Below, in pieces: positions 5,860-28,787 of a stretch of DNA of 64,000 nucleotides. The notes beneath the pieces were generated by a model, which did no database searches, was not told where the DNA came from, and saw only the letters and a program-made list of their open reading frames with translations. The DNA is taken from positions 2,294,001-2,358,000 of the forward strand of contig JASTWF010000034.1 of NCBI GenBank assembly GCA_030390025.1, written 5' to 3'. A program made the position numbers and the translations under genes. Every line of letters begins with the position of its first letter. Positions within the stretch are counted from its first letter, which is position 1. Source of the DNA: Squalus acanthias (taxonomy: Eukaryota).

Positions 5860-6938
5860 TTAGCCTCTCTTCCCTCTCCCACATCGTTACCTCTGTTGTC
5901 CCCCAAGGATCTCTCCTTGGCCCCCTCCTATTTCTCATCTACACGTTGCCACTTGGTGAAATCATCCAGAAACACAGTCAGTTCCACATGTACGCTGACG
6001 ACACCCAGCTCTACCTCACTACCTCTTCTCTCGACCCCTCCACGGTGTCTAAATTGTCAGACTGCTTGACCGACATGAGCAAAAGTTTCTCCAAGTAAAT
6101 ATTGGGAAGACCGAAGCCATTGTTTTCGGTCCCTGCCACCAACACCGTTCCCTTGCCACAGACTCAATCCCTCTCTCTAACATCTGTCTGAGGCTGAATC
6201 ACACTGTTCGCAACATTGGTGTCATATTTGACCCTGAATTGAGCTTCCGACCACATATCCGCAGCATAACAAAGGCCGCCTACTTCCACCTCCGTAACAT
6301 CACCCGTCTCCGCCCTTGCTCATCTCATCCGCTGCTGAAACCCTCATCCATGCCTTTGTTACTTCCAGACTTGACTATTCCAACGCACTCCTGGCTGGCC
6401 TCCCACATTCCACCCTATGTAAACTTGAGGTCATCCAAAACTCGGCTGCCCGTGTCCTAACTCGCACCAAGTCCCGTTCACCCATCTCCCCTGTGCTCGC
6501 TGACCTACACTGGCTCCCGGTTAAGCAGCACCTCGATTTCAAAATTCTCATCCTTGTTTTCAAATCCTTCCATGGCCTCGCCCCTTCCTATCTCTAATCT
6601 CCTTCAGCCCCACAAACCCCCGAGATATCTGCGCTCCTCTAATTCTGCCCTCTTCAGCAACCCTGATTACAATCGCTCAACATTTGGTGGCCCTGCCTTC
6701 TGTTGCCTAGGCCCTAAGTTCTAGAATTCCCAGCCTAAACCTCTCCGCCTCGCTAACTGTCTTTCCTCCTTGAAGACGCTCATTAAAACTTCAACTTTGA
6801 CTAAGATTTTAGTCACCTGTCCGAATTTATCCTGATGTGGCTCAATGTCAAAATTGTTTGTCTTAAAATACACCTGTGAAGCGACTAGGGACGTTTTACT
6901 ACGTTAAAGGCGCTATTTAAATACAAGTTATTGTTGTT
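5860..6938 (+). mobile_element. L2-clade LINE 3' fragment
   Basis: VPQGSLLGPLLF, MYADDTQLY, AETLIHAFVTSRLDYSN, LHWLPV; tail AAAGGCGCTATTTAAATACAAG(TTG)n. Confidence 0.92.
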
Positions 6939-7063
6939 GCACATCTCTGGCTCTATAGAATCATAGAATGGATACAGTACAGAAGGAGGCCTTACGGCCC
7001 GTCGAGCCCGTGCCGGCTTTCTACAAGAGCACTTCAGCAAGTCCCACTTATCCAATCCCCTTT

Positions 7064-8790
7064 TGATATACTCCACACCCCTCACTGTAACACGGATATA
7101 CTCCACACCCCTCACTGTAACACTGATATACCACACACCCCTCACTGTAACACTGATATACTCCACGCCCCTCACTGTAATACTGATATACCCCACACCC
7201 CTCACTGTAACACTGATATACTCCACACCCCTAACTGTAACACTGATATACCCCACACCCCTCACTGCAACACTGATATAACCCACACCCCTCACTGTAA
7301 CACTGATATACACCACACCCCTCACTGTAACACTGATATACCCCACACCCCTCACTGTAACACTGATATACCCCACACCCCTCACTGTAACACTGATATA
7401 CCCCACACCCCTCACTGTAACACTGATATATCCCGCACCCCTCACTGTAACACTGATATACTCCGCACCCCTAACTGTAACACTGATATATCCCACACCC
7501 CTCACTGTAACACTGATATACCCCACACCCCTCACTGTAACAGATATATCCCACACCCCTCACTGTAACACTGATATACTCCACACCCCTAACTGTAACA
7601 CTGAAATACCCCACATCCCTCACTGTAACACTGATACACCCCACACCCCTCACTGAAACACTGATATACCCCACACCCCTCACTGTAACACTGATATACC
7701 CCACACCCCTCACTGTAATGCACTGATATACCCCACACCCCTCACTGTAATGCACTGATATACCCCACACCCCTCACTGTAACACTGATATACCCCACAC
7801 CACTCACTGTAACACTGATATACCCCACACCCCTCACTGTAACACTGATATATCCCACACGCCTCACTGTAACACTGATATACCCCACACCCCTCACTGT
7901 AACACTGATATACGCCACACCCCACACTGTAAAACTGATATACCCCACACCCCTCACTATAACACTGATATACCCCACATCCCTCACTGTAACATTGATA
8001 TACCCCACACCCCTCACTGTAACACTGATATATCCCACACGCCTCACTGTAACACTGATATAACCCACACCACTCACTGTATTACTGATATACCCCACAC
8101 ACCTCACTGCAACACTGATATACCACTCACCCCTCACTAACACTGATATGCCCCACACCCCTCACTGTAACACAGCAGTACCCCACACCCCTCACTGTAA
8201 CACTGATATACCCCACACCCCTCACTGTAACACTGATATACCCCACATCCCTCACTGTAACACTGATATATCCCACACGCCTCACTGTAACACTGATATA
8301 ACCCACACCACTCACTGTATTACTGATATACCCCACACCTCTCACTGTAACACAGCAGTACCCCACACCCCTCACTGTAACACTGATATACCCCACACCT
8401 CTCACTGTAACACTGATATACCCCACACCTCTCACTGTAACACTGATATACCCCGCACCCCACACTGTAAAACTGATATACCCCACACTCCTCACTATAA
8501 CACTGATATACCCCACATCCCTCACTGTAACATTGATATACCCCACATCCCTCACTGGAACACTGATATATCCCACACGCCTCACTGTAACACTGATATA
8601 ACCCACACCACTCACTGTATTACTGATATACCCCACACCCCTCACTATAACACAGCAGTACCCCACACCCCTCACTGTAACACTGATATACCCCACACCT
8701 CTCACTGTAACACAGATATACCTTATACCCCTCAATTTAACACTGTGATATACCTCACTATAACACACGGAAATACCCCACAGGCCTCAC
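7064..8790. repeat. 30-bp minisatellite (about 57 units)
   Basis: Unit CACTGATATACCCCACACCCCTCACTGTAA. Confidence 0.97.
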
Positions 8791-8805
8791 AGTAACACTA
8801 TGCTT

Positions 8806-9567
8806 CAGTGGGGAGGCGAGCTGCTATTTTAGTGGGGAGGTGAGCTGCTGGTTTAGTGGGGAGGTGAGCTGCTGGTTTAGTGGGGAGGTGAGCTGCTGGT
8901 TTAGTGGGGAGGTGAGCTGCTGGTTTAGTGGGGAGGTGAGCTGCTGGTTTAGTGGGGAGGTGAGCTGCTGGTTTAGTGGGGAGGTGAGCTGCTGGTTTAG
9001 TGGGGAGGTGAGCTGCTGGTTTAGTGGGGAGGTGAGCTGCTGGTTTAGTGGGGAGGTGAGCTGCTGGTTTAGTGGGGAGGTGAGCTGCTGGTTTAGTGGG
9101 GAGGTGAGCTGCTGGTTTAGTGGGGAGGTGAGCTGCTGGTTTAGTGGGCTGGTGAGCTGCTGGTTTAGTGGGCTGGTGAGCTGCTGGTTTAGTGGGGAGG
9201 TGAGCTGCTGGTTTAGTGGGGAGGTGAGCTGCTGGTTTAGTGGGGAGGTGAGCTGCTGGTTTAGTGGGGAGGTGAGCTGCTGGTTTAGTGGGGAGGTGAG
9301 CTGCTGGTTTAGTGGGGAGGTGAGCTGCTGGTTTAGTGGGGAGGTGAGCTGCTGGTTTAGTGGGGAGGTGAGCTGCTGGTTTAGTGGGGAGGTGAGCTGC
9401 TGGTTTAGTGGGGAGGTGAGCTGCTGGTTTAGTGGGGAGGTGAGCTGCTGGTTTAGTGGGGAGGTGATCTGCTGGTTTAGTGGGCTGGTGAGCTGCTGGT
9501 TTAGTGGGGAGGTGAGCTGCTGGTTTAGTGGGGAGGTGAGCTGCTGGTTTAGTGGGGAGGTGAGCTG
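8806..9567. repeat. 24-bp near-perfect G-rich minisatellite (about 31 units)
   Basis: Unit GTGGGGAGGTGAGCTGCTGGTTTA. Confidence 0.98.
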
Positions 9568-9925
9568 TTATCATTCGTTGTTCTTGCCCATTGATCTCTA
9601 TCAGTTTGTTCTTTACTCTCCCACACAGGAGTGTTAATTACCTGCTTCTGTAACCTTCAAACCCTCACAGCTTCCAATGTCCTTTACAAAAGGGACTGAT
9701 TCTCTGCCCACACAGCCCAGCAGTCTTCCAGACACCCTGCTGGCATTAAATTCAATCTTCACACTCACCTATGCTCGGCAGCAGATGTGCGTCTTTCTGG
9801 AGTGTATTCTAACCTAACTTAATCCGTGGTTATTCTAGCTTAATATTGATATAATTCCATATGTCAACCAGTGTATTATATTTAATAATCTATACATACC
9901 AATACTTACAAGAACTTTTAAAAGG

Positions 9926-10459
9926 TCAGCTTTCAGAGTGCATTCGCTTGCGCTTCAGTAGACTGGATGACCTTGTGAATCTCTCCACACACATGGAGTG
10001 GGTCAACAGTCTCTCCCCAGTGTGTCTGCGCCGATGAATTTGCATCTGAGACGGATAATTGAACCCCTTCTCACAGTCCCCACATTCCCACGGTTTCTCC
10101 ATGGTCCATCTGTCTCTCCAGGTTGGACGATCGTTTGAAGCCTCGTCCACACACATAACACGTGTACGGTTTCTCCCCGCTGTGAATGGTGTGAAGTTTT
10201 TTCAGGCTGTGTAGCTGGTTACAGCTCTTTCCACAGTCAGTGCACTGGAACACTCTCGCTCAAGTGTGAATGGGTCTCAGTGCTTTCCCAGTCGCATGAT
10301 GTGTAAAATCCTTTCCCACACACAAGAACCCGAGAAAGATGTCTCCTTCCGCATTCAAAGGCCGATGATATTCAGGTCCTGATGAATCGAGTGACTCTCA
10401 GATCTTGGCGTGATGTTTGTTTTGAGTTTCTTGTCTACAAATCCTCCCCTTCTAATACC
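9926..10459 (-). pseudogene. C2H2 zinc-finger exon, frameshifted (left copy)
   Basis: [68 protein letters not shown]; acceptor TTTTTCAG|GGT on minus strand at 10460. Confidence 0.9.
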
Positions 10460-10674
10460 CTGAAAAAGGAGATTACAAAAGTCATCACTAAGTGCAGGAC
10501 ATAAATTCAGAACAGACAATTCTACTTTCTATGGAACAATCTTTCCTCTCTTGTTTCCCCCAAAAGCTGTAAATTCCTGTCCCACACACTCTCCCTCTCC
10601 CTGTGCTGAAATCCCTACCCATTGCACCATATTTTTGCCCCAACCCACTCTCTCCCTCCCTCTGCTCTCCAGCC

Positions 10675-11207
10675 CCTGTGTGCGAGGAGTGTGATGGAAT
10701 ACTCTCCACTTGCCTGGATGAGTACAGCTCCAACAACACTCAAGAAGCTCGACGCCATCCAGGACGAATCAGCCCGCTTGATTGACACCCCATCCACCAC
10801 ATGAAACATTCACTCCCTCCACCACCGGCGTACCGTGGCTGCAGTGTGTACCATCTACAAGATGCACTGGAGCAACTCGCCAGGTCGTGATCGGTAGCAA
10901 CTCCCAAACCCGCGAACTCTTCTACACAGAAGATCAAGGACAGCAGGCTCATGGGAACACCACCACCTCCAGGTTCCCCTCCAAGTCACACACCATCCTG
11001 ACTTAGAAGTATATCGTCAATCCTTCATCATCGCTGGGTCAAAATCCAGGAACTCCCTATCTAACAGCAAAGTGGGAGTACCATCACCACACGGACTGCA
11101 GCGGTTTAAGAAGGCAGCTCACCACCACCTTCTCAAGGGCAATTAGGGATGGGTAATAAATTCTGGCCTTGCCAGCGACTCCCACATCGCATAAACGAAT
11201 ATAAAAA
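10675..11207 (+). mobile_element. Non-LTR LINE 3' end (CR1-like clade, family not assigned)
   Basis: MEYSPLAWMSTAPTTLKKLDAIQ; 3' end CACCACCTTCTCAAGGGCAATTAGGGATGGGTAATAAA with A-rich tail; mirror 22855-23385. Confidence 0.8.
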
Positions 11208-11224
11208 GCAGCTTCTGCTGCACC

Positions 11225-11750
11225 TGCTCTGGGAGTGGGTGGCGCATGCGCCCTGATCCCGCCCTGTCCAAGATGGCGGCGCGGGGACAAGTCCCGCCTT
11301 CCTTCACCAAGATGGCGGCCGGTTGCCGGGGTAACCCGGGGCTCTCGCCGCGGAGAAATCCTCTCGCAAACGGGCGGACAGTCACCCGCTCAACCCGGCG
11401 GCCGGGCCTGGCGCCACGGCGCAAACACGGCACCGGCGGCGTCTTATTCGGGGCCTGAGCCCGACGCCCGGTGTTTTTGAAGCTCCCCAGCCCCGCCGCG
11501 GCGACTATTCCTCCCCGGCCCCCACAATGTCTTCCCACCTCTCGAGCCGCCTTTTCGGCCATTAGTGCAACAGAAAATGACCTGAACCGTTCGCTCTGAT
11601 TCTCTCGGCCCGCGACTTTTATTGTTGTCCGCCATTACTCTTGACGTCACCACGCGTACTGCGCATGATCAGAGCACGCCCCGGTCTCGCGCCTGCGCAG
11701 TGGAGTCCTGCAGTCATTGATAGGGCACTTTCTGCCGCGTGGTGGATCCT
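11225..11750 (-). promoter_or_regulatory. CpG-island promoter of the ZNF gene (left copy)
   Basis: High CpG density; two YY1 motifs CAAGATGGCGGC; NRF1-type GCGCATGCGC, TGCGCATG, GCGCCTGCGCA; CRE TGACGTCA at 11642. Confidence 0.75.
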
Positions 11751-11921
11751 GGGTAAACACACTGCCATTGAAAGTTCCAATTGCTGAAGAGATCATTCAC
11801 ATTTTCAGATTGGGCCTTTGTTCACTACCTGTAGGCGGCTAACATTAAGTTGCCCCATTTTCACTAGACGTGGACATAAACCAATAAGGCAAGTGTCCCA
11901 GCACACCACAAATATCCAGTA

Positions 11922-12027
11922 ACAGTTCTGACGAAGGGCCCTGGACCCGAAACGTTGACTCTGTTTCTCTCTCCTCGATGCTGCCTGACCTACTGAGTGT
12001 TTCCAACATGTTCTGTTGTTATTCCTG
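11922..12027 (+). mobile_element. Penelope pseudo-LTR remnant with hammerhead motif
   Basis: CTGACGA-AGGGCCCTGGACCC-GAAACGTT followed by CTCTCTCC..GATGCTGCCTGACC, as at the 3' ends of the other Penelope copies; mirror 22015-22122. Confidence 0.75.
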
Positions 12028-12059
12028 TAATAAGTATGTACAATACACCCAAACACACA

Positions 12060-12213
12060 AACAATAATTAAATCACAATGTGACAGTGAGGGTCGATTAT
12101 TACCTCACTGAGCTACGGTGCCCACCGGGCACCTCAGGTAATGATACAGAGGCTGCAACCTCTCACACTGAAAATACATATGGATCATAGACTCCTCAAG
12201 GCCGTAAAAACAC
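12060..12213 (-). mobile_element. Tx1/L1-like LINE 3' fragment, internally deleted relative to its mirror
   Basis: Matches both ends of 21563-21980 but lacks about 270 bp of its middle. Confidence 0.6.
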
Positions 12214-12490
12214 GGCTGGAATTGTGCCTACCTGGCAGGTCCGGTGCGGGCGGTGGCAATCGCGGGTCGTCAGCCCGCTGCTGAAAATGACTTTACGTTA
12301 GTCGGACCTATTGAGCCCACCCAGCGTGTTACCCGGTCCAATTAAATGATGCGGGTCTGGACTGTTGACATCGTTGATTAAGCGTTTTCAGCCGGGATCT
12401 TTAAGGGGCCATGGCCACATTGGACTTGAATGTCAATGTAACATACTGCTGTCAGTGCACTACAGCATTGGATTGCTGCAAACACTAACA

Positions 12491-14040
12491 ATGACTGCAC
12501 AGAGGCAGAGGGCTGCACCCAGGTTGTCTGATGGCTCCCTCCATATGCTTATGAAGGGAGTCAAAGCATTCAGGGTGGTCCTCTTCTCTTCCAATGGACA
12601 GATGTGACCTCCCCAGGACACTAAAACAGCCTGGTTGGAGATTGCAGAGGGGGTCACCAGCAGGGATGTTGTCAGCAAGACCTGGGTGCAGTGCTGCAAA
12701 CGTTACAATGATCTCATTAGATCAGGAAACGTGAGTACAAAGCCACACTCACCTTCCTCTTGCTATGCCTCTCATCACACCCCCATCACTCTGCCTTCCC
12801 AACCCTACCCCTGCACATTCTTACTCACACCAACATACCTTGCACGTCCACCCGTCCCTCTCTTTCTATTTACATTATCACATCCCCATTTCAATAGCCA
12901 CCGCTCACACTGACACTCACCCTTGTGCAATCATACCAACTAACAACACACAAGGAGGCCACTTGTATTTGGCACCCCACTCCATCATAGTCACCATCTA
13001 AATATCTACCACATCCATTCCTTACATTCATTCCATCAGTCTCACTCAAACTTCTCTTTTTTCCCTCCTTGCAGGAAAAGAGAGCCCACAATAACAGGGA
13101 GAAGGGGTGAACCGGCGGTGTCAGTCCATCATTTGCAAACCTTACAATAGCAGAGGAGGCTGCTTTAGAAATATCTGGAGTCGCTGAGCAGCTGGAGGTG
13201 GGAGATGGAGCGAGGGGGACATCTCAGCAACCGGGTGACAGAATTACATATCATACAGCAACATGGCATACATCCATCACTCAAATGGGCACTGATCTCA
13301 CTGAATGGTCATCATGTACATAATGGTATCTGTACCCATTGTTCATATGACATATCTAACTCATATCTTCACTCTCCCACAGGTCCATCAAGAGTTCCCC
13401 CCCCTCCAATGTCCAGGAGGAAGAGGAAGATGACTCCTCAGAGGAGCCTCAGCCGCTGAGGGTTCACCATCACAAGAATTAGATAGAGTAGTGTTGTCAA
13501 CTGGTGTCTCCCAATTCACAAGTGTGCAAGAGGAGATGGTGGAGAGAGGGAGAGCAGTGGAGTCTCCTTGCTAGAGGGCGCAGGACGCTCCCAGCTCTGC
13601 TCAGCTGCATGCAGACGCTGAGCCTCGGGGGCCATCTAGAAAGAGGGCGACCCTGGAGATGCAGCAAGAAGTGCAGGGGGCTCTGACAGGTATTGCGAGC
13701 GCGATGTCTGCAAATTTTCAGAGAATGGAGTAGTCAATCACCAACATGAGCACCACCTTGTCACAGGCGATGGTGACTGTAGGCTCCTCCATGGATAGGA
13801 TGGGCAGCTACATGGAGCAGCTAATGCGCCACTCAGAGGAGCACATGGTCTTTATGGAGGATAGATGGCTATGTATAGCGAATAGATGGCAGAGACTCAT
13901 AGACCTCCTCTCTAACAGGGATGTCAGCATAGACGTGGGTCCTCATGGCCTCACTGCTGTGCAACAAGGTGCTCTACACCTCCTTGGCAGCAGGGAAGAG
14001 AGCAGGCGGCCTCTACCTCTGCTGAAGCCACAGGGCTAGC
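12491..14040 (+). pseudogene. Harbinger-associated Myb/SANT-like DNA-binding protein gene, 3 exons, disrupted
   Basis: MTAQRQRAAPRLSDGSL..AWLEIAEGVTSRDVVSKTWVQCCKRYNDLIRSG; donor GTGAGT 12731, acceptor TTGCAG 13074 then EKRAHNNREK; acceptor CCCACAG 13382; in-frame stops at 12605 and about 13108. Confidence 0.8.
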
Positions 14041-14069
14041 TCCTCGTAGATGCATGCAGAAGAAAAAGA

Positions 14070-14818
14070 TGAAACACAATCTAAGATCTTTATGATCTCT
14101 GAGAGTTCTTGGACAAGACAGCAATAGGCAGCAGCCAGTATGTTTGAGCAATCGATTAAGATTTATTAAGCTTACAGCGTAATAGACTGAACAGCAGGGG
14201 ATAGTTTAACGAGTAGCTCGCAGCCCTTGGACTCTGGAACCTCTCGGACACAAGTGACGTCATCTTCAGTCTGTTCCTTTGTTCTTGCAGTCGGTCTGTG
14301 TAAAGTTGTTATTCGAGTATCAAGGTTTTAACCCATATCTTATCAAAAGTTCATGCGGGTATTGTCCATATATGGTCTTTAACAAAATCACCTATTTTAA
14401 TTGGTTCTAATGATCAAAACACCATTGTCACTCAGACTAAGTTTAGCATCCTGGCCTCACCTTTCCCGTATTTTTCCTACAACTTTACCCTGTTCATCGT
14501 CATCTTGTTTATAGTTCTTCACCACATTGGAATTGACCTTATCTCTCTCATTTCTAGCTTCCCTGGTACAGGCAGTACAAGGCCTCATAAGCTGCGTAAG
14601 CTGCGATACTGTCCGTTATCAGAGCCAGTCTTGACTAGTCCTGGCTGTCTTTGCAGTTACATTTGGAGCAAGCCTCAGCAATTTATGCACAAGTCATTAC
14701 AGGTCACACTGAATATAGATATTTGGTTAATGTGAAGTTCACTATTCTACACTCACTTATACATGTTATTACTAAAAACATCCAAGTATCAGTCTTTTGT
14801 ACACACATATAATTCACA
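14070..14818 (-). mobile_element. Probable solo LTR inserted in the Harbinger element
   Basis: Minus strand shows TATA-like TTAAAA, CRE TGACGTCA (14255-14262), AATAAA, and ends GTGTTTCA; no TSD resolved. Confidence 0.5.
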
Positions 14819-15400
14819 AGGGTAGCCACTTGGGGGTTTTATCGAATGTTAATGTAAAGTTTCCGTTAATGTACTGTCAAGTATAAAAAATCATATTGTC
14901 AACACTTTCCGGTCTTGGACAGATCTGTGTGCACCTTCGCTAGTGGATTAAAGAGTTGCAGTGAATGGTGGGACATAACGGTACCTCCCACAATGGTGGT
15001 GAGTGTGAAAGGAATGGCTTGGTCATTGCAGGGATGCTTTACGGTGTTGCTCTGGGATGGTGCCAACCTGGAGCATCATCTGGCAGCTGCAAGGGTGAAC
15101 AGCGTCAAGTGAAGTAGATCTGGCCATGGTGAGGCCAGCCCTGGCCTGCCGGGCAGCAATGTGCTCGGGTGCTGATGCGCTCTGTCCTCTGCAGCATCAA
15201 GTGATTGCGGAGAAGGTTGGTGTTGTTGTTGGTGCTGCTGGTGTGCCTGGCGCTGCTGAGGACCAAGGTGAGACAGTATAAACGGCATCCATGCTGATGG
15301 AATAGATGGCAGGTGAAGTAGAGATGACAGAAGCAATCTGTCAAAGTGGGAGAGGTTCCTCCAATGAGGTGACACTGGATGGAGACTTTGCTGGAAAGAC

Positions 15401-15757
15401 CAACTAGATGCAGGAAGGATGTTTCCGATGGTCGGGGAGTCCAGAACCAGGGGTCACAGTCTAAGGATAAGGGGTAAGCCAGTTAGGACAGAAATGAGGA
15501 GGAATTTCTTCACCCAGAGAGTGGTGAACCTGTGGAATTCTCTGCCACAGAAGGCAGTAGAGGCCAATTCATTAAATAGATTCAAGGAGTTGGATATATT
15601 TCTTAATGCTAAAGGGATCAAGGGATATGGGGAGAAAGCAGGGACAGGGTACTGAATTTGGATGATCAGCCATGATCGCATTGAATGGCAGAGCAGGCTA
15701 GAGGGGCCGAATGGCCTACTCCTTCTTCTTTCTTCTATGAGTCTATGAGTCTATGAG
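15401..15757 (+). mobile_element. CR1 3' fragment in palindrome spacer
   Basis: MFPMVGESRTRGHSLRIRG..NFFTQRVVNLWNSLP; (CTATGAGT)n tail. Confidence 0.92.
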
Positions 15758-17820
15758 ATCCAAACCCCAACATTGTCATTAAACCTGCTGACAAGGGTGG
15801 TGCTGTTGTTGTTTGGCGAACCGACCTCTACCGTGCGGAGGCTGAACGCCAATCTCCGACACCTCCTCCTCCGACCTCCGCCTGGACAATGGCCCCACCA
15901 CCGAACATCAAGCCACCATTTCCTAGACTGTCACTGGCCTCATCTCCTCTGGAGATCTTCCCTCCACGGCCGCCAGTCTAAATAATTCCCCAACCCCGCA
16001 CAGCCCTCTTCTACCTCCTGCCCTAGATCCACAAACAGGTCTCCTGGTAGACGCATCGTTTCAGCCTGTCCTTGCCCCACGGAACGTAACTCTTCCTATC
16101 TCGACTCTATTTTTTCTCCCCTTGTTCAGTCTCTTCCCACCTACATCCGCGACTCTTCCGACGCCCACTGCCACTTTAACAGTTTCCAGTTTCCTGGCCC
16201 CAACCGTCTCCTTTTCACTATGGATGTCCAATCCCTCTGCACCTCCATCCCCCACCAGGATGGCCTGAGGGCGCTCCACTTCTTCCTTGAAAAGAGGCCC
16301 AACCAGTCCCGATCCACCACCACCCTCCTCCGCCTGGCTGAACTTCTTCTCACATTGAACAACTTCTCCTTTGACTCCAGTCACTTCCTCCAAATTAAAG
16401 GTGTTGCTATGGAAACCCGCATGGGTGCCTAGCTATGCCTGCCTTTTCGTGGGATATGTGGACATTCTTTGTTCCAGTCCTACTCAGGTCCCCGCCCTCA
16501 CCTCTTTTTCTGGTACATTGATAACTGTATCGGTGCTGTTTCCTGCTCTCGCCCTGAACTAGAAAATGTCATTCCTTTTGCTTCCAATCTCCACCCTTCC
16601 CTCACCTTCACATGGTCCATCTGTGGCTCTTCCCTTCCCTTCCTTGACTTCTCCGTCTCCATCTCTGGGGATAGGTTATTAACAAACATTCACTGTAAGC
16701 CCACTGACTCCCACAGCTACCTGGACTACACTTCCTCACACCCCGCTTCCTGTAAGGACTCTATTCCATTCTCCCAATTTCTCTGTCTCCTCTGCATCTG
16801 CTCTGACGATGCCACCTTCCATACTAGTGCTTCCGACATGTCTTCCTTTTTCAACAACCGAGGATTCCGCTCTACTGTGGTTGACACGGCCCTTGACCGT
16901 GTCCGTTCTATTTCCCGCACTTCTGCTCTCACCCCTTTCCCTCCCTCCTGGAACCACGATAGGGTTCCCTTGTCCTCATCTTTCACCCCACCAGCCTCCA
17001 CATTCAACAGATCATCCTCCGCCATTTCCGCCACCTCCAGCGTGATCCCTTTCAGCATTCCAAAGGGAATACTCTCTCCAAAACATCCTGGCCCACTCCT
17101 CTATCACCCCCAACAACCCGCTGCACTTCCCACGGCAGCTTCCATGCAAGCCTGTACACTGGGGAGATCAAACGCACATTGGGTGACCGCTTTGCGGAAC
17201 ACCTCCCTGCAGTCAGTAAGGGTGATCCCGAGCTTCCGGTCGCCTGTCACATTAATTCTCCGCACCACTCCCACTCTGACCTCTCCGTCCTCGGCCTCTT
17301 CTACTGTTCAATGATGCTCAACGTAAGCTCAAGGATCAGCACCTCATCTTTCGATTAGGCACTTTACAGCTTTCTGGACTCAACATTGAGTTCAACAATT
17401 TCAGACCATAACCTCGGCCCCTACCATTTTGTTCATGTTTTCTCTCTCTCACATGGCAGCTGTCGATCATTCTGCCATTGCCATTTACACTTCATCTAGA
17501 GTCATCTTTTGTTTCTTAATTTGTCCCATTACCATCTCCTTTTGCCTTGCACCATCATCCCTTTTGTCTCTTAATCTCTCCTGCCTTCCATCCAATCACA
17601 GACCTTCACATTTGTTCTTTCCTCCCCTCCCCCTTTCCCTGCCCCTACACTGACTTAAAAACCTGTTCCATCTCCAACTTTTTCCAGTTCTGACGAAGAG
17701 TCATCGACCTGAAACATGAACTCTGATACTCTCTCCACAAATGCTGCCTCACCTGCTGAGTACTTGCAGCATTTTCTGTTGTTATTTCAGATTTCCAGCA
17801 TCCACAGTATTTTGCTTTTG
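15758..17820 (+). mobile_element. Penelope-like retroelement (RT, degenerate GIY-YIG, pLTR)
   Basis: IVIKPADKGGAVVVW, FTMDVQSL, QIKGVAMETRMG, YIDNCIG, LPFLD, KPTDSHSYL; degenerate hammerhead at 17690-17718. Confidence 0.9.
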
Positions 17821-18892
17821 TACTAATAATTGAAATTGGGTCGCCCGACTCTGCCGGTCAGGGCGGATCCACGCTGATAGACGCACCTGGGGGACACGCG
17901 CGTCGGAGAGGGATGACAGTGGGGTCCCGACCCGTTCGCAGAAATAACAACTTTCCCACCCGACCCGCCTCCGATCGCGCCCGCTACCACCCCAGAAAAT
18001 GAGTATTTCTAGCATTTTCTGTTTAAATTATTAGTAGTTATCTGTCAGACCTTTAACAGTGGGTTTAACCTTACCTTTTAAATTGAACTGGATGGCCACG
18101 GGATGCTCTCTGCTCGGGGGATCAGGTCTGACAACCTGAGGCGGGAGTTCAGTGGCCATTGCTCCAGCTGATTACTTTTCAGCATGAAATGTAGTATAAA
18201 TACTCCCACCTGACTAATGATCACTTTCCTCAGCAGAAGCTGTTTCTCACTGCATTCCCAGCGCAGATTCAGCAGGTTGCAGTCTTTCCAGCAAAGTCTC
18301 CATCCAATGTCACCTCATTGGGAGAACCTTTCCCACATTGACAGATTGCTTCTGTCATCACTACTTCACCTGCCATCTATTCCATCAGCATGGATGCCGT
18401 TTATACTGTCTCACCTTGGCCCTCAGAATCTGATCACGATGAGCCCCAACACCAGCAGCGCCAGGCACACCATCAGCATCAACAACAACACCAACCTTCT
18501 CCACAATCACTTGATGCTGCAGAGGACGGAGCGCATCAGCACCCGAGCACATTGCTGCCCAGCAGGCCAGGGCTGGCCTCACTATGGCCAGATTTACTTC
18601 ACTTGATGCTGTACACCCTTACAGCTGCCATATGATGCTCCAGGATGGCACCACCCCACAGCAACACCGTAAAGCATCCCTGCAATGACCAAGCCATTCC
18701 TTTCACACTCACCACCATTGTGGGAGTTACCGTTATGTCCCACCATTCACTGTATCTCATTAATCCACTTGCAAAGGTGCACAAACATCTGTCCAAGACC
18801 GGAAAGTGTTGAAAATATGGATTTTGATGTTTGACAGCACATTAATGGAAACTTTACATAAACATTCGATAAAACCCCCAAGTGGCTACCCT

Positions 18893-19650
18893 TGTGAATT
18901 ATACTTGTGTAGAAAAGACTGATAGTTGGATGTTTTTAGTAATAACATGTATAAGTATAAGTGTGAGTGTAGAATATTGAACTTCACATTAACCAAATAT
19001 CTATATTCAGTGTGACCTGTCATGACTTGTGCATAAATTGCTGAGGCTTGCTCAAAATGTAACTGCAAAGACAGCCAGGACTAGTCAAGACTAGCTCTGA
19101 TAACGGACAGTATCGCAGCTTACGCAGTTTATGTGGCCTTTTACTGCTTGTACCAGGGAAGGTAGAAATGAGAGAGATAAGGTCAATTCCAATGGGGTGA
19201 AGAACTATAAACAAGATAACGATGAACAGGGTAAAGTTGTAGGAAAAATACTGGAAAGGCGGGGCCAGGATGCTAAACTTAGACTGAGTAACAATTGTGT
19301 TTTGATCATTAGAACCTATTAAAATAGATGATTTTGTTAAAGACCATATATGGACAATACCCGCATGAACTTTTGATAAGATATGGGTTAAAACCTTGCT
19401 ACTCGAAAAACAACTTTACACAGACCTACTGCAAGATCAAAGGAACAGACTGAAGATGACGTCACTTGTGTCCGAGAGGTTCCAGAGTCCAAGGGCTGCG
19501 AGCTACTCGTTAAACTATCGCCTGCTCATCAGTCTATTACGCTGTAAGCTTAATACATCTTGATCTATTGCTCAAATATACTGGCTACTGCCTATTGGTG
19601 TCTTGTCCAAGAACTCTGAGAGATTATAAAGCTCTTACACTTCTGTGTCA
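18893..19650 (+). mobile_element. Probable solo LTR (mirror of 14070-14818)
   Basis: TTAAAA about 19388, TGACGTCA 19457-19464, ends GTGTCA at 19650. Confidence 0.5.
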
Positions 19651-19680
19651 TCTTTCTCTTCTGCATGTATCTACGAGGAG

Positions 19681-21280
19681 CTAGCCGTGTGGCTTCAGCA
19701 GAGGTAGAGGCAGCCTGCTCACGTCCCTGCTGCCAAGGAGGTGGGGAGCACCTTGCTGCACAGCAGTGAGGCCATGAGGACCCACGTCTACGCTGACATA
19801 CCTCCTAGAGAGGAGGTCTATGAGCCTCTGCCATCTATTCTCTATACATAGCCATCTATCCCCCATAAAGAACATGTGCTCCTCCGAGTGGAGCATTAGC
19901 TGCTCCATGTAGCTGCCCATCCTATCCATGGAGGAGCCTACAGTCACCATCGCCTGTGACAAGGTGGTGGTCATGTTGGAGATGGACTCCTCCATTCTCT
20001 GAACATTTGCAGACTTCGCGCTCGCAACACCTGTCGGAGCCCCCCTGCACTTCTTGCTGCACCTCCAGGATCATCCTCTTTCTGGATGGCCCCCAGGCTC
20101 AGCGTCTGCATGCAGCTGAGCAGAGCTGGGAGCGTCCTGCGCCCTCCGGCAAGGGGTCTCCACTGCCTTCCTTCTCTCCACCATCTGCTCTTGCACACTT
20201 GTGAGTTGTGAGACACCAGGTGACAACACTACTCTATCTCATGTGGGACCCACCGAGGTGTGCGTGTCTGACCTTGTGCTGGGTGCGCTTATGTCTGGTG
20301 ACGGTGCACCTTCAGAGGCTGGAGGCTACTCTGAGGAGTCATCTTCCTCTTCCTCCTGGACATTGAAGGGGCGGAGCTCTTGATGGACCTGTGGGAGAGT
20401 GAAGATATGAGTTAGATATGTCATGTGAAGAATGGGTACAGATACCTTTATGCACATGATGACCATTCAGTGAGATCAGCGCCCATATGAGTGACTGATG
20501 TATGCCATGTAGCTGTATGATATGTAACTCTGTCACTAGGTTGCTGAGATGTCCCACTCTCTCCGTCTGCCACCTCCAGCTGCTCGGCAACTCCAGATAT
20601 TTCTAAAGCAGCCTCCTCTGCTGTTGTAAGGTTTACAAATGATGGAGTGCCACCACCGGTTCTCCCCTTCTCCCTCTTATTGTGGGCTCTCTTTTGCTGC
20701 AAGGAGGGAAAGAAGAGAAGTTTGAGTGAGAGTGATGGAATGAATGTAAGGAATGGATGGGGTAGATATTTAGAGGGGGAATATGATGGAGTGGGGTGCC
20801 AAAGACAAGTGGCCTCCTTGTGTGTTGTTATTTGGTATGATTGCACTAGGATGAGGGTGAGTGCGAGGAGTGACTAGTGAGATGGGGATGTGATTATGTA
20901 AATAGAAAGAGAGGGGTGGGTGGATGTGCAAGATTTGTTGGTGTGAGTAAGAATGTACAGGGGTAGGGTTGGGAAGGCAGAGTGATGGGGGTGTGATGAG
21001 AGGCACAGCAAGATGAAGGTGAGTGTGGCTTTGTACTCACGTTTCCTGATCTAATGAGATCATTGAAATGTTTGTGGCACTGCACCCAGGTCTTCCTGAC
21101 AACATCCCTGCTGGTGACCCCCTCTGCAATCTCCAACCAGGCTATTTTGGTGTCCTGGGGAGGTCTCTTCCATCCATTGGAAGAGGAGAGGACCACACTT
21201 GGTGCTTTGACTCACTTTATAATCATATGGAGGGAACCATCGGACAACCTGGGAGCAGCCCTCTGCCTCTGTGCAGTCAT
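19681..21280 (-). pseudogene. Harbinger Myb/SANT-like gene (right copy, disrupted)
   Basis: Exon 1 21280-21041 with TGA at codon 23; KIAWLEIAEGVTSRDVVRKTWVQCHKHFNDLIRSG; exon 2 KRAHNKREKGRTGGGTP. Confidence 0.8.
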
Positions 21281-21562
21281 TGTCAGTATTTGCAGCACTC
21301 CAATGCTGCAGTGCACCGGCAGCACTATGTTACATTGACATTCAAATCCAACGTGGCCATGGCCCCTTTTAAGCTCCCGGCTGAAAACGCGTCATCGATT
21401 ACGTCAACAGACCAGACCCGCATCATTTAATTAGACCGGGTAACGCGCTGGGCGGGCTTAATAGGCCCTATTAACATAAAGTCATTTTCAGCAGCGGGGT
21501 CATGACCCGTCATTGCCATCGCCCGCAACAGACCTGCCCAGGTAGGCACAATTCCGGCCGTG

Positions 21563-21980
21563 GTTTTTAAGGCCTTGAGGATTCCATGGGCCATATGTAT
21601 TTTCAATGTGAGAGGTTGCAGCCTCAGTATCGTTACCTGAAGTGGCAGCTGCTCAACTTTTGGTTACATTTTAGCCCCAGGCTCCTAATCTTTGGCCGCC
21701 TGGTGCAGAGTGGGGTGAGTGAGGCGGCAGATCTTCTCCTGGACCTGCTCTTGGACTTGGCGGAATCAGCAATTTGTAGGTTCAGGGTCGGCGGGGCCCA
21801 TGGGGTGCGAGGGTGTCACTGGATTCCAGCTCCTGTTCCGCGGTCTTGTCCGTGCCCAGGTGGCCCTGGAGAGGGAGCATGCGGTGTCCACCGGTACGGA
21901 CGATACCTTCCGTGGCCGGAGGGCACCGCAGATCAGTGAGGTGATAATCGATCCTCACAATCACATTGTGATTTAATTAT
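21563..21980 (+). mobile_element. Tx1/L1-like LINE ORF2 C-terminal fragment
   Basis: HMYFQCERLQP..LLNFWLHFSPRLLIFG..LFRGLVRAQVALEREHAVSTGT. Confidence 0.7.
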
Positions 21981-22289
21981 TGTTTGTGTGTGTGGCTGTA
22001 TTGTACATACTTATTACTGGAAAAACAACCGAAAATGCTGGAAACACTCAGCAGGTCAGGCAGCACCGAGGAGAGAGAAACAGAGCCAAAGTTTCGGGTC
22101 GATGGCCCTTTGTCAGAACTGTTACTGGAGATTTGTGGTGTGCTGGGACACTTGCCTTAATGGGTTATGTCCCCGCCTGCTGACACTGGGGCAACTTAAT
22201 GTCACCCCCCTACAGATAGTGAACAACGGCCCAATCTGAATATGTGAATGTTCGCTTCACGAATTGGAGCTTTCAATGGCGGTGTATTT

Positions 22290-22850
22290 GCCTAGGATAC
22301 CCCGCGCGGCAGAAAGTGCCCTATCAATGACTACATGAGCCCAGTGCGCAGGCGCGGGTCCGGGGCGTGGTCCGAGCATGCGCAGTGCGGGTGATGACGT
22401 GTGGGAGCAATAGCGGAACAACAACAACAACGATTCGAGAGAAGCAGATCGAACGGTTCAGGTCGATGACCTTCGTCAGAGCATTTCCTGTTGTACTAAT
22501 GGCCGAACAAGCGATGCGGGAGGCGGGAGGAGATTGTGGGGGCCGGGGAGGAATAGGCGTCGCGGCTGGACTGGGAAACTTAATAAACACCCGGCATAGG
22601 CCTCAGGCACGGAATCAGACCTGGCGGGCCCAGTGTTTGCGCCGCGGCGCCTGGCCCAGCCGCTGGGGTGAGCGGGGCGACTGTCCGCCACCTTGCTGAA
22701 GGCTTTCTCCGCGGGTACAGGCCCGGGTTACCCCGGCAACCGACCGCCATCTTGGTGAAGGTAGGCGGGCCTTGTCACCGCGCCGCCATCTTGGACAGGG
22801 CATGGGGTCAGGGCGCATGCGCGGCCTTCTCCCAGTGCAGCTGCAGCAGA
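22290..22850 (+). promoter_or_regulatory. CpG-island promoter of the ZNF gene (right copy)
   Basis: CGCCATCTTG twice (YY1), GCATGCGCA, TGCGCAGGCGC, GCGCATGCGC; CpG-rich. Confidence 0.75.
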
Positions 22851-22854
22851 AGCA

Positions 22855-23385
22855 TTTTTTAATATTCGTTTATGGGATGTGGGAATTCCGGGCAAAAACC
22901 AGCATTTATTGGCCATCCCTAACTGCCCTTGAGAAGGTGGTGGTAAGCCACCTTCTTGAACCGCTGCAGTCCGTGTGGTGAAGGTACTCCCACAGTGCTG
23001 TTAGTGAGGGAGTTCCAGGTTTTTGACCCAGCGACGATGAAGGATCGGCCGATATACTTCCAAGTCAGGATGGTGCATGACTTGGAGGGGAACTTGGAGG
23101 TGATGGTGTTCCCATGCGCCTGCTGCCCTTGTCCTTCTAGGTGGAAGAGTTCGGGGGTTTGGGAGGTGCTGCCGATGAAGCCTTGGCAAGTTGCTGCAGT
23201 GCATCTTGTGGATGGTACATGCCACGGTGCGCAGTTGGTGGAGGGAGTGAATGTTTAAGGTGGTGGATGGGGTGTCAGTCATGCAGGCTGCTTTGTCCTG
23301 GATGGTGTCGAGCTTCTTGAGTATTGTTGGAGCTGTACTCATCCAGGCAAGTGGAGATTATTCCATCACACTCATCGCACACAGG
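22855..23385 (-). mobile_element. LINE 3' end (mirror of 10675-11207)
   Basis: MSTAPTILKKLDTIQDKAA..SLHQLRTVAC. Confidence 0.8.
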
Positions 23386-23608
23386 GTTCTGTAGAACTGG
23401 AGCCAAGCAGAGCAGAGGGAGGGAGAAAGTGGGAGAGGTGCAAAGACATGGTGCAATGGGTAAGGATTTCACCACAGGGAGAGGGAGAGTGTGTGCGACA
23501 GGAATTTACAGCTTTTGGGGGAAACAAAGGAGAGGAAAGATTGTTCCATAGAAACTAGAATTGTCTGTCCTGTACTTAGTGATGACTTTTGTAATCTCCT
23601 TTTTTCAG

Positions 23609-24302
23609 GGTTTTGGAAGGGGAGGATTTTCAGACAAGAAACTCAACCAAACATCACGCCAAGATCTGACAGAGTCACTCGATTCATCAGGACCTGAATA
23701 TCATCGGCCTTTGAATGTGGAGGGAGAAATCTTTCTCTGTTCTTGTGTGTGGGAAAGGATTTCAAACATCATGTGACTGTGAAAGCACCAAGACCCATAC
23801 ACACTTGAGCGAGAGTGTTCCAGTGCACTGACTGGAGTGAGCTGTAACCATGTTACACAGCCTGAAAAAACTTCACACCATTCACAGCGGGGAGAAACCG
23901 TACACGTGTTCTGTGTGTGGACGAGGCTTCAACCGATCGTCCAACCAGGAGAGACAGATGGACCTTGGAGAAACCGTGGGAATGTGGGGACTGTGAGAAG
24001 GGATTCAGTTATCCGTCTGAGATGCAAATTCATCGGCGCAGTTACACTGGGGAGAGACGGTTCACCCGCTCCATATGTGGGAAGGGATTCAGTCGGTCAT
24101 CCATCCTGCTGAAACACCAGCGAGTTCAAGCTGACGAGAGACTGTTCAGTCGCTTTCACTGTGGGAAGAGATTCAGTCATCCCACCTCATTGAACACCAG
24201 CATGTTCACACTGGAGAGAATCCGTTCACCTGCTCCGTGTGTGCGAAGGGATTCACAAGGTCATCCAGTCTGCTGAAACACCAGCAAATTTACTCTGAAA
24301 GC
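23609..24302 (+). pseudogene. C2H2 zinc-finger exon, frameshifted (right copy, two more fingers)
   Basis: Acceptor CTCCTTTTTTCAG|GG at 23608; [53 protein letters not shown]. Confidence 0.9.
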
Positions 24303-25968
24303 AGCCCTTTTAAAAGTTCTTGTAAGTATTGCTATGTATAGATTATTAAATAGAATACACTGGTTGACATATACAATTATTTCAATATTAAGCGAGAATA
24401 ACTGGGGATTAAGTTAGTTTAAAACACACTCCAGATAGAGACACATCTGCTGCCAAGCAGGGGTGAGTGTAAAGATTGAATTTAATGCCAGCAGGGTGTC
24501 TGGAGGACTGTCATAGAGTTATACAGCACGGATAGAGGCCCTTCGGCCCATCGTGTCCGTGCCGGCCATCAAGCCCTGTCAAATCTAATCCCATATTCCA
24601 GCATTTGGTCCGTAGCCTTGTATGCTATGGCATTTCAAGTGCTCATCCAAATGCTTCTTGAATGTTGTGAGGGTTCCTGCCTCCACAACCCTTTCAGGCA
24701 GTGAGTTCCAGACTCCAACCACCCTCTGGGTGAAAAAGTTCTTTCTCAAATCCCTTCTAAACCTCCCGCCCTTTACCTTGAATCTATGCCCCCTTGTTAT
24801 AGAGCCCTCTACTAAGGGAAAAAGCTGCTTAGTATCCATCCTATCTATGCCCCTCATAATTTTGTACACCTCAATCATGTCCCCCCTCAGCCTCCTCTGC
24901 TCCAGGGAAAACAAACCCAATCTACCCAGTCTCTCTTCATAGCTGAAGCACTCCAGCCCGGGTAACACTCTGGTGAATCTCCACTGCACCCTCTCCAATG
25001 CAATCACATCCTTCCGATAGTGTGTCGACCAGAACTGCACACAGTATTCCAGCTGTGGCCTAACTAGCGTTTTGTACAGCTCCATCATAACCTCCTTGCT
25101 CTTATATTCTATGCCTCGGCTAATGAATGCAATTATCCCATATGCCTTTTTTACCACCTTATCCACCTGTTCCGCCGCCTTCAGGGATCTGTGTACTTGC
25201 ACACCAAGATCCCTCTTACCCTCCGTCTTGCCGAGGGTCTTACCATTCATTGTGTATTTCCTTGCCTTGTTAGTCCCTCCAAAGTGCATCACCTCGCACT
25301 TTTCCGGATTAAATTCCATTTGCCACTGTTCCGCCCATCTGACCAACCCATCTATATCGTCCTGCAGACTGAGGCTACCCTCCTCGCTATTTACCACCCT
25401 ACCAATTTTTGTATCATCCGCAAACTTACTGATCATACCTTTTACATTCATATCCAAGTCGTTAATGTAGACCACAAACAGCAAGGGACCCAGCACCGAT
25501 CCCTGTGGTACCCCACTGGCCACAGGCTTCCAGTCACAAAAACAACCTTCGACCATCACCCTCTGCCTTCTGCCACTGAGCCAGTTTTGTATCCAATGTG
25601 CCAAGGCACCCTGGATTCCATGGGCTCTTACCTTTCTTGACCAGTCTCCTGTGCGGGACTTTATCGAAGGCCTTACTGAAATACATGTATACCACATCCA
25701 ATGCGTTACCCTCATCCACACACCTAGTCACCCCCTCAAAAAATTCAATCAAATTAGTCAGACGTGATCTTCCCTTGACAAAGCCATGTTGGCTAACCCT
25801 GATTAATCCTTGCCTCTCCAAGTGGAGACTGATTTTGTCCCTCAGAATTTTTTCCAATAATTTTCCTACCACTGATGTTAGGCTCACTGGCCTGTAGTTC
25901 CCTGGTTTTTCCCTACTCCCTTTCTTGAATAATGGTACTACATTAGCGGTTCTCCAGTCCTCTGGCAC

Positions 25969-26638
25969 ACTGAGACAACGTATGAACGAGCACCGCGCAA
26001 CAATCGCCAGGCAGGATTGTTACCTCCCAGTCGGGGAACACTTCAGCAGTCAAGGACATTCAGCCTCGGATCTGCGGGTAAGCGTTCTCCAAGGCAACCT
26101 TAGAAACACACGACAACGCAAAATCATCGAGCAGAAACTGATAGCCAAGTTCCGCACTCATGAAGACGGTCTCAATCGGGATCTTGGGTTTATGTCACGA
26201 TACATGACGTGATCCGGACTCGAGTCGTCGTTAGCTTGTTCACAGATGTGATTCCCAGTAAAAAAGTAAAAATTTTCCCAGTAAAAAAGTAAATTTTTTT
26301 TTAAGCTTTTCGTTTTACATACAGACGGCAGCTTTTGACACGTTGGAACCCCTGCGACTACACCTCATTGTCTCAGTTGTATCTTGCTATGTCTTTTGAT
26401 GTGGTACCTTCCTGGCTGACTTAATTAACTTTATCACACCTCGGCAGATAGTCAGGATGATTTAATTTATTGGTCTGCAATTGTAAAGTACACATGCTTT
26501 TTTTTCCATCTATATATGCTCTGGCGATTCTGTATCCAATTTACTTCACCTGAGGAAGGAGTGATAGCTCCGAAAGCTTGTGATTTCAAATAAAACTGTT
26601 GGACTATAACCTGGTGTTGTGCGACCTCTCAATTTTGG
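25969..26638 (+). mobile_element. Penelope-like 3' fragment nested in CR1
   Basis: GIY-YIG C-terminus LRQRMNEHR..PVGEHFS..EQKLIAKFRTHEDGLNRD; hammerhead at 26546-26583. Confidence 0.85.
26546..26583 (+). ncRNA. Minimal hammerhead ribozyme motif
   Basis: TCAC-CTGAGGA-A-GGAGT GATA GCTCC-GAA-AGCT-T-GTGA: conserved core, stem I TCAC/GTGA, palindromic stem III. Confidence 0.7.
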
Positions 26639-28650: not shown

Positions 28651-28787
28651 TGCAGTGCTACGGGGAAAGGGTGGGGGAGAAGGGACAAGCTGAAGTGCTC
28701 TTGCAGAGAGCCGGCACGGGCTCGATGGACCGTATGGCCTTATTCTGTGCTGTAACCATTCTATGATTATATAGAGCCAGAGATGTA

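What the first reader, a model, noticed from the sequence alone, without database searches (positions are those of the whole stretch)
11225..22850. Candidate Mu-killer-like hairpin locus: inverted pair of deleted Harbinger elements between two CpG-island promoters
Seen: two internally deleted Harbinger copies (12214-15400 and 18282-21559 pair over about 3.2 kb) face each other across a spacer of CR1 and Penelope pieces. Their Myb genes point inward, and a YY1/NRF1/CRE-rich CpG island sits 0.5-0.7 kb outside each terminus. Known: maize Mu killer is an inverted duplication of a partly deleted MuDR whose read-through hairpin RNA yields siRNAs that silence the family in trans; YY1/NRF1 islands are often bidirectional. 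Inference: inward transcription through the spacer would fold into kilobase-scale dsRNA, giving a possible vertebrate endo-siRNA or piRNA source against this family. There is no expression evidence in the sequence.
Basis: inference. Interest (0 to 1): 0.75.

Follow-up and report, generated by a model that had tools for sequence, protein, structure and literature searches.

The report
Mirror-duplicated shark zinc-finger gene unit
The two facing transposon remnants are real, but they ride inside a mirror-image duplication at least 38 kb long that also copied a decayed zinc-finger gene and its CpG island, which is likely that gene family's promoter, so a transposon-silencing hairpin RNA stays possible but untested.

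Summary
The inverted pair is real: 12214-15400 pairs with 18282-21559 (7.6% divergent), and both copies carry an inward, broken Harbinger-type Myb gene. But the symmetry does not stop at the transposon. Window 1-15400 mirrors 18282-38682 block by block. The two 'flanking promoters' are two copies of one CpG island, and outside each lies a broken exon of a shark C2H2 zinc-finger family. Database gene models from two other sharks join this island to that exon. The locus is best read as an old inverted segmental duplication of one ZNF + island + dead Harbinger unit.

The Harbinger arms show no sign of being kept as a duplex: they are more diverged than the distal arms (3.4%), and G-U-compatible changes are symmetric (59 vs 61). 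Expression could not be tested. Side finding: arm divergence peaks at the island (17%).

The parts
1..15400 (.). Left arm of the inverted segmental duplication (reaches the window start, so it may be longer)
   Evidence: collinear inverted blocks; divergence 3.3% (1-6512), 8.2%, 13.8% (10752-12613), 6.9% (12614-15400)
18282..38682 (.). Right arm, longer by two CR1 insertions
9900..10459 (-). Left C2H2-ZNF last exon, frameshifted, with an internal deletion of about 170 nt; acceptor before 10459
   Evidence: Pfam zf-C2H2 E 7.8e-7
23609..24330 (+). Right C2H2-ZNF last exon, frameshifted; family leader 79-89% identical to Pristiophorus and Heterodontus proteins
   Evidence: Pfam zf-C2H2 E 3.4e-11
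10685..11206 (.). LINE fragment between island and ZNF exon, present in both arms (right copy 22880-23372)
   Evidence: very high summed depth
11225..11710 (.). Left CpG island: YY1 motifs at 11270 and 11309 reading inward (+), NRF1 at 11242, NRF1/CRE cluster 11642-11699; candidate outward splice donor after 11224
22325..22850 (.). Right CpG island, inverted copy of the left one (17.3% divergent); YY1 motifs at 22792 and 22753 reading inward (-); the matching donor GT is absent
12214..15400 (+). Left Harbinger-type remnant: outer terminus 12214, three-exon Myb pseudogene 12491-14039, cut at 15400
17826..21559 (-). Right Harbinger-type remnant: outer terminus 21559, Myb pseudogene 21280-19681; 17826-18281 is unpaired and its role as the inner end is uncertain
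   Evidence: a family contig crosses 18282 (record 18); end-to-end similarity weak
18899..19640 (+). About 740-bp insertion shared by both arms (left about 14080-14815), solo-LTR-like by its ends (class not tested)
   Evidence: DNA-run contigs join 18898 to 19639 and 18899 to 19644; lower summed depth; ends
18390..18700 (+). Candidate transposase start and end joined across a deletion (left copy starts at 15292, minus strand); identity not confirmed
   Evidence: translation; no hit
15398..15758 (+). 5'-truncated CR1 3' piece at the duplication junction; 3-nt overlap 15398-15400 with the arm end
   Evidence: loose ends before 15398 in X16 and X18
15759..17825 (+). Penelope-like RT/EN piece and tail, with a minimal-hammerhead-like core at 17690
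   Evidence: no Rfam hammerhead match
24506..28268 (-). CR1 LINE present only in the right arm, 5-bp target duplication, empty site at 9721-9725
33936..36478 (+). Second right-arm-only CR1 inside the 67-bp array, inverted to the first at 96-97%

Best explanation
The locus is a mirror-image segmental duplication of at least 38 kb in a shark-type genome that copied one unit made of a C2H2 zinc-finger gene, its CpG island and an adjacent deleted Harbinger; the island likely is the zinc-finger family's promoter firing mainly outward, and the facing Harbingers are likely passengers. Shown: the collinear mirror, the shared insertion and lesions, arm-specific later insertions, and homology of island and exon to shark gene models. 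Inferred order: a Harbinger inserted about 0.5 kb from a ZNF promoter, lost its transposase core and took up a 740-bp insert. The region was then duplicated in inverted orientation, with the junction at 15400 against a CR1 piece (3-nt overlap, compatible with a fold-back or template switch). Both ZNF exons decayed, two CR1s entered the right arm, and the distal arms were probably homogenised later by gene conversion. Any inward read-through would make double-stranded RNA as a by-product, as for other inverted repeats in transcribed DNA.
For: Inverted homology runs from base 1 to 15400 against 38682 to 18282 in collinear blocks at 85-97%. The flanks outside the Harbinger termini, both islands and both ZNF exons align. 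Both Harbingers share the 740-bp insert that family contigs of DNA run X3 lack and 4 of 16 listed sites that differ from the family majority; the other 12 are private to the right copy. The right-only CR1 has a 5-bp target duplication and an empty site in the left arm. The ZNF leader hits 3 proteins at E<=0.001 among 11 candidates, all from sharks. A Pristiophorus model (three isoforms) matches the island read outward (z 2.0-4.0 against 30 shuffles; inward z -0.4 to -0.8) and then the ZNF exon (E 1.6e-15). Harbinger arms differ at 243 of 3185 sites against 108 of 3193 in the outer arms (p 6e-14). G-U-compatible differences number 59 for a + and 61 for a - transcript. In the Myb body 16 of 37 CpG sites show CpG>TpG/CpA change, as in methylated repeats, against 6 of 60 in the island.
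Against: Both YY1 motifs face inward, the orientation expected just downstream of a start site (PMC2518114 and 10.1101/2024.05.28.596138, passages). A Heterodontus ZNF530-like model reads the island inward (z 6.8 and 4.7, stronger than the outward matches) before the same ZNF exon. Five of six promoter motifs are intact in both copies (p about 0.004 after allowing for ascertainment) although both ZNF exons are broken, so something may still select for these promoters. There is no AATAAA on the + strand in 11250-22500 (expected 3.2, P about 0.04; seven ATTAAA are present). The outward match is weak in 3 of 4 tests (z about 2), and all three models are predicted proteins whose loci I could not see.
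Confidence: 0.7

Rival explanations
1. Mu-killer-like silencer: the retained promoters fire inward, the RNA crosses the 2.9-kb spacer and folds into a kilobase duplex, and Dicer or PIWI products silence this Harbinger family in trans.
For: Inward YY1 pair, retained motifs and CpGs; 3001 of 3280 columns would pair, with 49 runs of 21 nt or more, longest 82; no + strand AATAAA between the islands; the family looks very abundant (summed DNA depth 2e5-9e5 in most Harbinger bins of X3; a hint, not a copy number).
Against: Arms more diverged than neutral-looking distal arms, no wobble asymmetry, three indels of 8-51 nt; no DDE core detectable in the arms; an inward RNA would read a spliced Myb gene in sense and meet hammerhead-like cores at 11928 and 17690 (such minimal cores cleave poorly alone, PMC4209133 passages); in maize, read-through sense transcripts were found in plants that failed to silence (PMC3440606).
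Confidence: 0.08
2. Incidental double-stranded RNA: inward transcription is real, but the duplex is intronic or nuclear, is A-to-I edited or degraded, and silences nothing.
For: Same promoter evidence as above; long inverted repeats are common (6.6 million in 424 genomes) and need not yield siRNA (PMC8728187 passages); a closer inverted CR1 pair lies downstream of the right promoter.
Against: The outward model and the splice sites of the sense Myb gene offer shorter, ordinary fates for any transcript.
Confidence: 0.12
3. Criss-cross transcription: each island's YY1-positioned start fires inward and splices across the palindrome centre into the opposite arm's ZNF exon, which would make head-to-head pairs a working layout of this ZNF family.
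For: Heterodontus model P0003 has this order: island read inward (residues 9-65 on 11402-11572, E 2.5e-6), then the ZNF exon (residues 92-119 on 23645-23728).
Against: P0003 is a single predicted protein (cluster of 1) and may be a stitched prediction; the three-isoform Pristiophorus model reads outward; both ZNF exons here are broken.
Confidence: 0.07
4. Two independent Harbinger insertions next to two independent promoters.
For: The family is abundant.
Against: Same insertion site with kilobases of matching flank, shared 740-bp insert and shared derived sites.
Confidence: 0.01
5. Assembly artefact from a fold-back read.
For: Low transition/transversion ratio (336 transitions, 382 transversions in 10235 columns); the best DNA runs hold only about half of the sampled words.
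Against: Arms differ by 3-17% in a stepped pattern and by whole arm-specific insertions, one with a target-site duplication; a fold-back chimera would give near-identical arms.
Confidence: 0.02

Closest known systems
Large palindromic segmental duplications with a spacer, e.g. primate X palindromes (PMC8327919, passages read) and mouse chr12 SD12A1 (PMC13688818, listing and abstract start only)
   Same: Inverted arms over 10 kb around a short spacer, carrying duplicated genes; distal identity that suggests arm-to-arm conversion.
   Different: Arms are 83-97% alike, not over 99%; the genes in the arms are broken; the chromosome is unknown.
Lineage-specific poly-C2H2 ZNF gene families (tetrapod KRAB-ZNF, cyprinid FiNZ-ZNF; 10.1101/2022.11.29.518450, passages read; 'shark' and 'chondrichth' occur 0 times in its main text)
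   Same: C2H2 finger array in one last exon, many paralogs, rapid turnover, repeat-rich setting.
   Different: No KRAB or FiNZ domain found by Pfam in the ORFs scanned; the leader matched only shark proteins; both copies are pseudogenes.
Maize Mu killer (PMC3440606, passages read)
   Same: Inverted duplication of a deleted DNA transposon in which both arms keep the same terminus, next to host promoters.
   Different: Here host flanks of 12-17 kb are duplicated too, the arms are 7.6% diverged, the loop is 2.9 kb, the arms cover the Myb gene and no detectable transposase core, and neither transcript nor silencing is shown.
PIF/Harbinger elements of fishes (PMC9179366, passages read)
   Same: Myb-like ORF with many chondrichthyan relatives (10 of 10 looked-up hits are shark or ray proteins).
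   Different: No DDE transposase core; TIR pair and target duplication not established.
Hairpin-RNA / long-inverted-repeat siRNA loci of Drosophila and mouse oocytes (as summarised in PMC8728187)
   Same: Kilobase arms that would form a stable duplex.
   Different: No expression data; no sequence sign of selection for pairing.

Membership tests
Mu killer-type silencing locus | Inverted duplication of a partly deleted transposon, both arms with the same terminus | tested here: met
Mu killer-type silencing locus | Duplication confined to the element, flanks being different host genes | tested here: not met
   flanks are duplicated out to 1 and 38682
Mu killer-type silencing locus | Arms cover transposase-coding sequence | tested here: not met
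   no DDE hit among 126 ORFs scanned; Myb only
Mu killer-type silencing locus | Sequence sign that pairing is maintained | tested here: not met
   7.6% vs 3.4% divergence; wobble 59 vs 61
Mu killer-type silencing locus | Transcript through both arms | not testable with these tools
   only unstranded contigs of runs guessed to be RNA
Mu killer-type silencing locus | Small RNAs and trans silencing of an active family | not testable with these tools
   no small-RNA data
Inverted segmental duplication (palindrome) | Collinear inverted arms over 10 kb with a spacer | tested here: met
Inverted segmental duplication (palindrome) | Shared older lesions and arm-specific later insertions | tested here: met
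Sex-chromosome-type palindrome | Arm identity above 99% | tested here: not met
   83-97%
PIF/Harbinger | Myb/SANT-like ORF | tested here: met
   PF13873 23.5 bits left, 19.0 right; three exons match shark Myb-like proteins
PIF/Harbinger | DDE transposase ORF | tested here: not met
   consistent with deletion but unconfirmed
PIF/Harbinger | Pair of terminal inverted repeats and 3-bp target duplication | tested here: inconclusive
   outer end vs 17815-18030: 16 and 4 of 300 shuffles reach the score for the right copy, 118 and 89 for the left
Shark C2H2-ZNF family | C2H2 fingers and family leader in a last exon behind a splice acceptor | tested here: met
Shark C2H2-ZNF family | Intact reading frame | tested here: not met
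   frameshifts and stops in both copies
Penelope minimal hammerhead | Conserved core in the element tail | tested here: inconclusive
   five regex hits from a recalled core; no Rfam hammerhead match in 9500-24600; cleavage untested

The most novel reading that the evidence does not exclude
After both zinc-finger exons died, selection kept the two promoter copies because their YY1-positioned starts fire inward across the deleted Harbingers. The 3-kb duplex would then feed small RNAs against one of the genome's most abundant DNA transposon families: a natural vertebrate counterpart of Mu killer, born from a ZNF-cluster palindrome.
Probability: 0.08. Interest if true: 0.75.

Novelty: new member of a known kind. 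Interest (0 to 1): 0.3.

Why it matters
As read here it is an ordinary product of ZNF-cluster turnover, and it shows how such clusters can place inverted transposon copies between live promoters with no selection for silencing. Two things are worth keeping. First, the locus is a ready test case: arm-specific variants (7.6%) let reads be mapped uniquely, so one gonadal small-RNA and CAGE data set would settle whether a shark makes small RNAs from such a repeat. Second, arm divergence peaks on the unmethylated promoter (16.5% at non-CpG sites against 3-7% in most other blocks) while its YY1/NRF1 motifs persist. If general, this bears on where mutation or recombination concentrates in cartilaginous fishes, some of which lack a PRDM9 domain (PMC5519329, passages).

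Tried and rejected
No whole genome is held, so copy numbers and other palindromes could not be counted. Run search: no RNA holder listed; five runs guessed to be RNA hold 0.08-0.14 of the words. Laying X3, X16, X17, X18 (4 of 20 listed runs) on 15300-24500 (right arm plus spacer only) gave contigs only. Among the 32 pieces and 15 joints shown (169024 and 448 not shown) none bridges 15400 and none joins the island to the ZNF exon. This says nothing for or against expression. A>G and T>C counts were alike in the DNA and the RNA-guessed runs, so editing could not be read. Rfam: one weak chance hit (mir-143, E 4.4) in 9500-24600. Word-index protein searches with Myb exon 1 and with a ZNF stretch found nothing; the HMMER search found 23 relatives. 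Atlas: no usable hit for the transposase-start candidate; unnamed eukaryotic clusters and one RVT_1 lead (15% of members) for the Penelope-like ORF. GC-biased conversion as the cause of the divergence peak: no W>S excess in the flanking LINE piece (15 W>S, 28 S>W over both arms); the island itself could not be polarised. The bacterial promoter scan is irrelevant here. Earlier-findings look-ups by place, by island sequence and by one word set were empty. Paper searches: 13 papers hold 'Mu killer' + 'inverted duplication' + 'hairpin'; none of the 12 listed has a vertebrate case in its title or abstract start. In one search only 1 of 15 listed papers contains 'Mu killer'. One search listed no paper whose title concerns this shark ZNF family. 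PMC10208646 and 10.1101/2025.06.08.657570 (passages) did not describe it. Most subscription papers are not searched, and no supplements were read.
Full report
OBSERVATION. The inverted pair is in the sequence. After masking tandem repeats, 12130-15400 aligns to 21644-18282 at 89.7% over 3365 columns; in 12214-15400, 243 of 3185 aligned sites differ. Each copy has an inward three-exon Myb-like gene: exon 1 hits PF13873 at 23.5 bits on the left and 19.0 on the right (cut-off 21.7), each with a different stop. A full HMMER search gave 23 relatives; the 10 I looked up are all shark or ray proteins, and some match the later exons too. The genome is therefore chondrichthyan by homology. CpG islands with YY1, NRF1 and CRE-like motifs lie about 0.5 and 0.75 kb outside the termini (motif strings are recalled). 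No transposase core was detected (126 ORFs against Pfam; Atlas), and the pairing of the two element ends is inconclusive. 'Harbinger' thus rests on the Myb gene, the layout and the family's abundance.

The mirror extends far beyond the transposon. Blocks 1-654, 2884-4385, 4740-5784, 5806-7045, 9568-9725 and 9933-12140 match 38682 down to 21904 in order and orientation at 85-97%. The two islands are copies of one island. Outward of each lies a splice acceptor (10459 minus, 23609 plus) and a C2H2 zinc-finger exon (Pfam E 7.8e-7 and 3.4e-11), frameshifted in both arms. Its leader hits three shark proteins, 79-89% identical (3 of 11 candidates). Earlier scan notes on this genome describe a hugely amplified ZNF family with a dead leader (e1-7851862, e1-7851811; leads only).

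ONE INSERTION, THEN DUPLICATION. Both Harbingers sit at the same flank and share an insert of about 740 bp that other family copies lack: contigs of DNA run X3 join 18898 to 19639 and 18899 to 19644 (likeness 90, short side 26 letters for the first). Of the 40 difference rows shown (436 not shown), 22 lie in the paired region. Of the 16 inside the Harbinger, 4 are shared by both arms and 12 are private to the right arm; the 6 outside are all private. The right arm gained two CR1s later: 24506-28268, with a 5-bp target duplication and an empty site at 9721-9725, and 33936-36478. At the junction, arm identity ends at 15400 and CR1-type contigs begin to match at 15398, a 3-nt overlap. This fits a fold-back or template switch, or a truncated CR1 insertion with deletion; the two cannot be told apart here. 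Arm-specific insertions and 3-17% divergence argue against an assembly fold-back.

WHAT THE ISLAND DOES. Pristiophorus model P0001 (three isoforms) matches the island read outward and then the ZNF exon. With a frameshift-tolerant aligner and 30 shuffles, outward z is 2.3 and 2.1 (P0001) and 4.0 and 2.0 (P0005); inward z is -0.4 to -0.8. Its isoforms part after a five-residue stretch that the left island also encodes just before a GT at 11223 (that match alone is weak, E 15); the right copy lacks this GT. Against a purely outward reading, Heterodontus model P0003 matches the island read inward (z 6.8 and 4.7) before the same ZNF exon, and both YY1 motifs face inward. In human promoters YY1 sits just downstream of the start in a strand-biased way (10.1101/2024.05.28.596138 and PMC2518114, passages), although the latter notes that most functional YY1 sites occur in variable positions and orientations. 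The island is thus tied to this ZNF family in at least three sharks and may be bidirectional. It looks alive: 6 of 60 CpG sites show decay against 16 of 37 in the Myb body, and 49 of 50 YY1/NRF1 positions are identical against 360 of 442 other island positions. Allowing for having picked motifs seen in either copy, 5 of 6 intact in both has p about 0.004. Selection in a paralog that later converted one island would give the same picture; the summed DNA depth of 3250 in the island bin hints at many paralogs (not a copy number).

THE HAIRPIN IDEA. A read-through RNA would pair: 3001 of 3280 columns, 49 runs of 21 nt or more, longest 82; duplex energies of -473 to -610 kcal/mol per 300-nt piece exceed self-folding in 8 of 8 pieces. 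The + strand has no AATAAA in 11250-22500 (expected 3.2, P about 0.04), though it has seven ATTAAA; the - strand has AATAAA at 14167 and 11623. Nothing marks the duplex as selected. The Harbinger arms are over twice as diverged as the distal arms (7.6% vs 3.4%, p 6e-14). G-U-compatible differences are 59 and 61 for the two strands, transitions are 120 of 243 differences (48 of 108 in the outer arms), and there are indels of 8, 29 and 51 nt. The arms would yield RNAs against the Myb gene, not a transposase core. An inward RNA would read the Myb gene in sense with its splice sites and meet hammerhead-like cores at 11928 and 17690 (no Rfam match; single minimal motifs showed no cleavage in PMC4209133). 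In maize, one study found read-through sense transcripts in plants that failed to silence (PMC3440606). The public runs could not test expression (see Tried and rejected).

UNEXPLAINED. Arm divergence is stepped. The best of 1-7 segments by BIC has four: 3.3% (1-6512), 8.2% (6513-10751), 13.8% (10752-12613) and 6.9% (12614-15400). The island itself is 17.3%, and 16.5% at non-CpG sites. Against a third copy at 42898-43887, the arms are each other's closest match up to about 6500 and about as far from each other as from the third copy in 6526-6813, as expected if the distal arms were converted later. The peak on the island may reflect promoter-centred mutation or recombination, or conversion from another paralog; the flanking LINE piece shows no W>S excess.

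VERDICT. An old inverted segmental duplication of a ZNF + promoter + dead Harbinger unit (0.70). Incidental double-stranded RNA 0.12, Mu-killer-like silencer 0.08, criss-cross ZNF transcription 0.07, artefact 0.02, independent insertions 0.01. It is built like Mu killer in outline but fails three of the four features I could test, and the two functional ones were not testable. New member of a known kind; interest 0.3.

Noticed in passing
window 10752-12613 vs 21150-23300: Arm-to-arm divergence peaks on the CpG island (17.3%) and drops in a step to 3.3% beyond 6512; motifs and CpGs are kept. Cause unknown.
   Followed up: partly
window 1-15400 vs 18282-38682: Transitions do not outnumber transversions between the arms (336 vs 382), which is low for vertebrate DNA by my recall.
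   Followed up: no
window 24506-28268 and 33936-36478: Two young CR1 copies, inverted to each other at 96-97%, both inserted in the right arm only; a better duplex candidate than the Harbinger pair if outward transcription runs on.
   Followed up: partly
window 11928, 17690, 22116, 22479, 47531: Minimal-hammerhead-like cores in Penelope-type tails; one sits inside the right island and is deleted by 18 nt in the left.
   Followed up: partly
window 7064-9567 vs 28422-28556: A 30-bp and a 24-bp tandem array (2.5 kb, the 24-mer 98% homogeneous) on the left arm face only about 135 bp of the 24-mer on the right: arm-specific satellite growth or loss.
   Followed up: no
window 21645-21903: A 270-bp GC-rich piece between island and Harbinger present only in the right arm.
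   Followed up: no
window 38692-39287 and 42898-43887: Third copies of arm segments (88-89%), either dispersed repeats or signs of further duplication.
   Followed up: partly
P0002 (Pristiophorus): A predicted histone H2A protein ends in the same ZNF leader exon, which suggests that ZNF units lie among histone genes in that shark.
   Followed up: no
window 655-2883, 32782-33867, 36486-38013, 40873-41183, 42128-42502, 44132-46563, 61816-62110: Tandem arrays of 67, 47, 52 and 51 bp.
   Followed up: no
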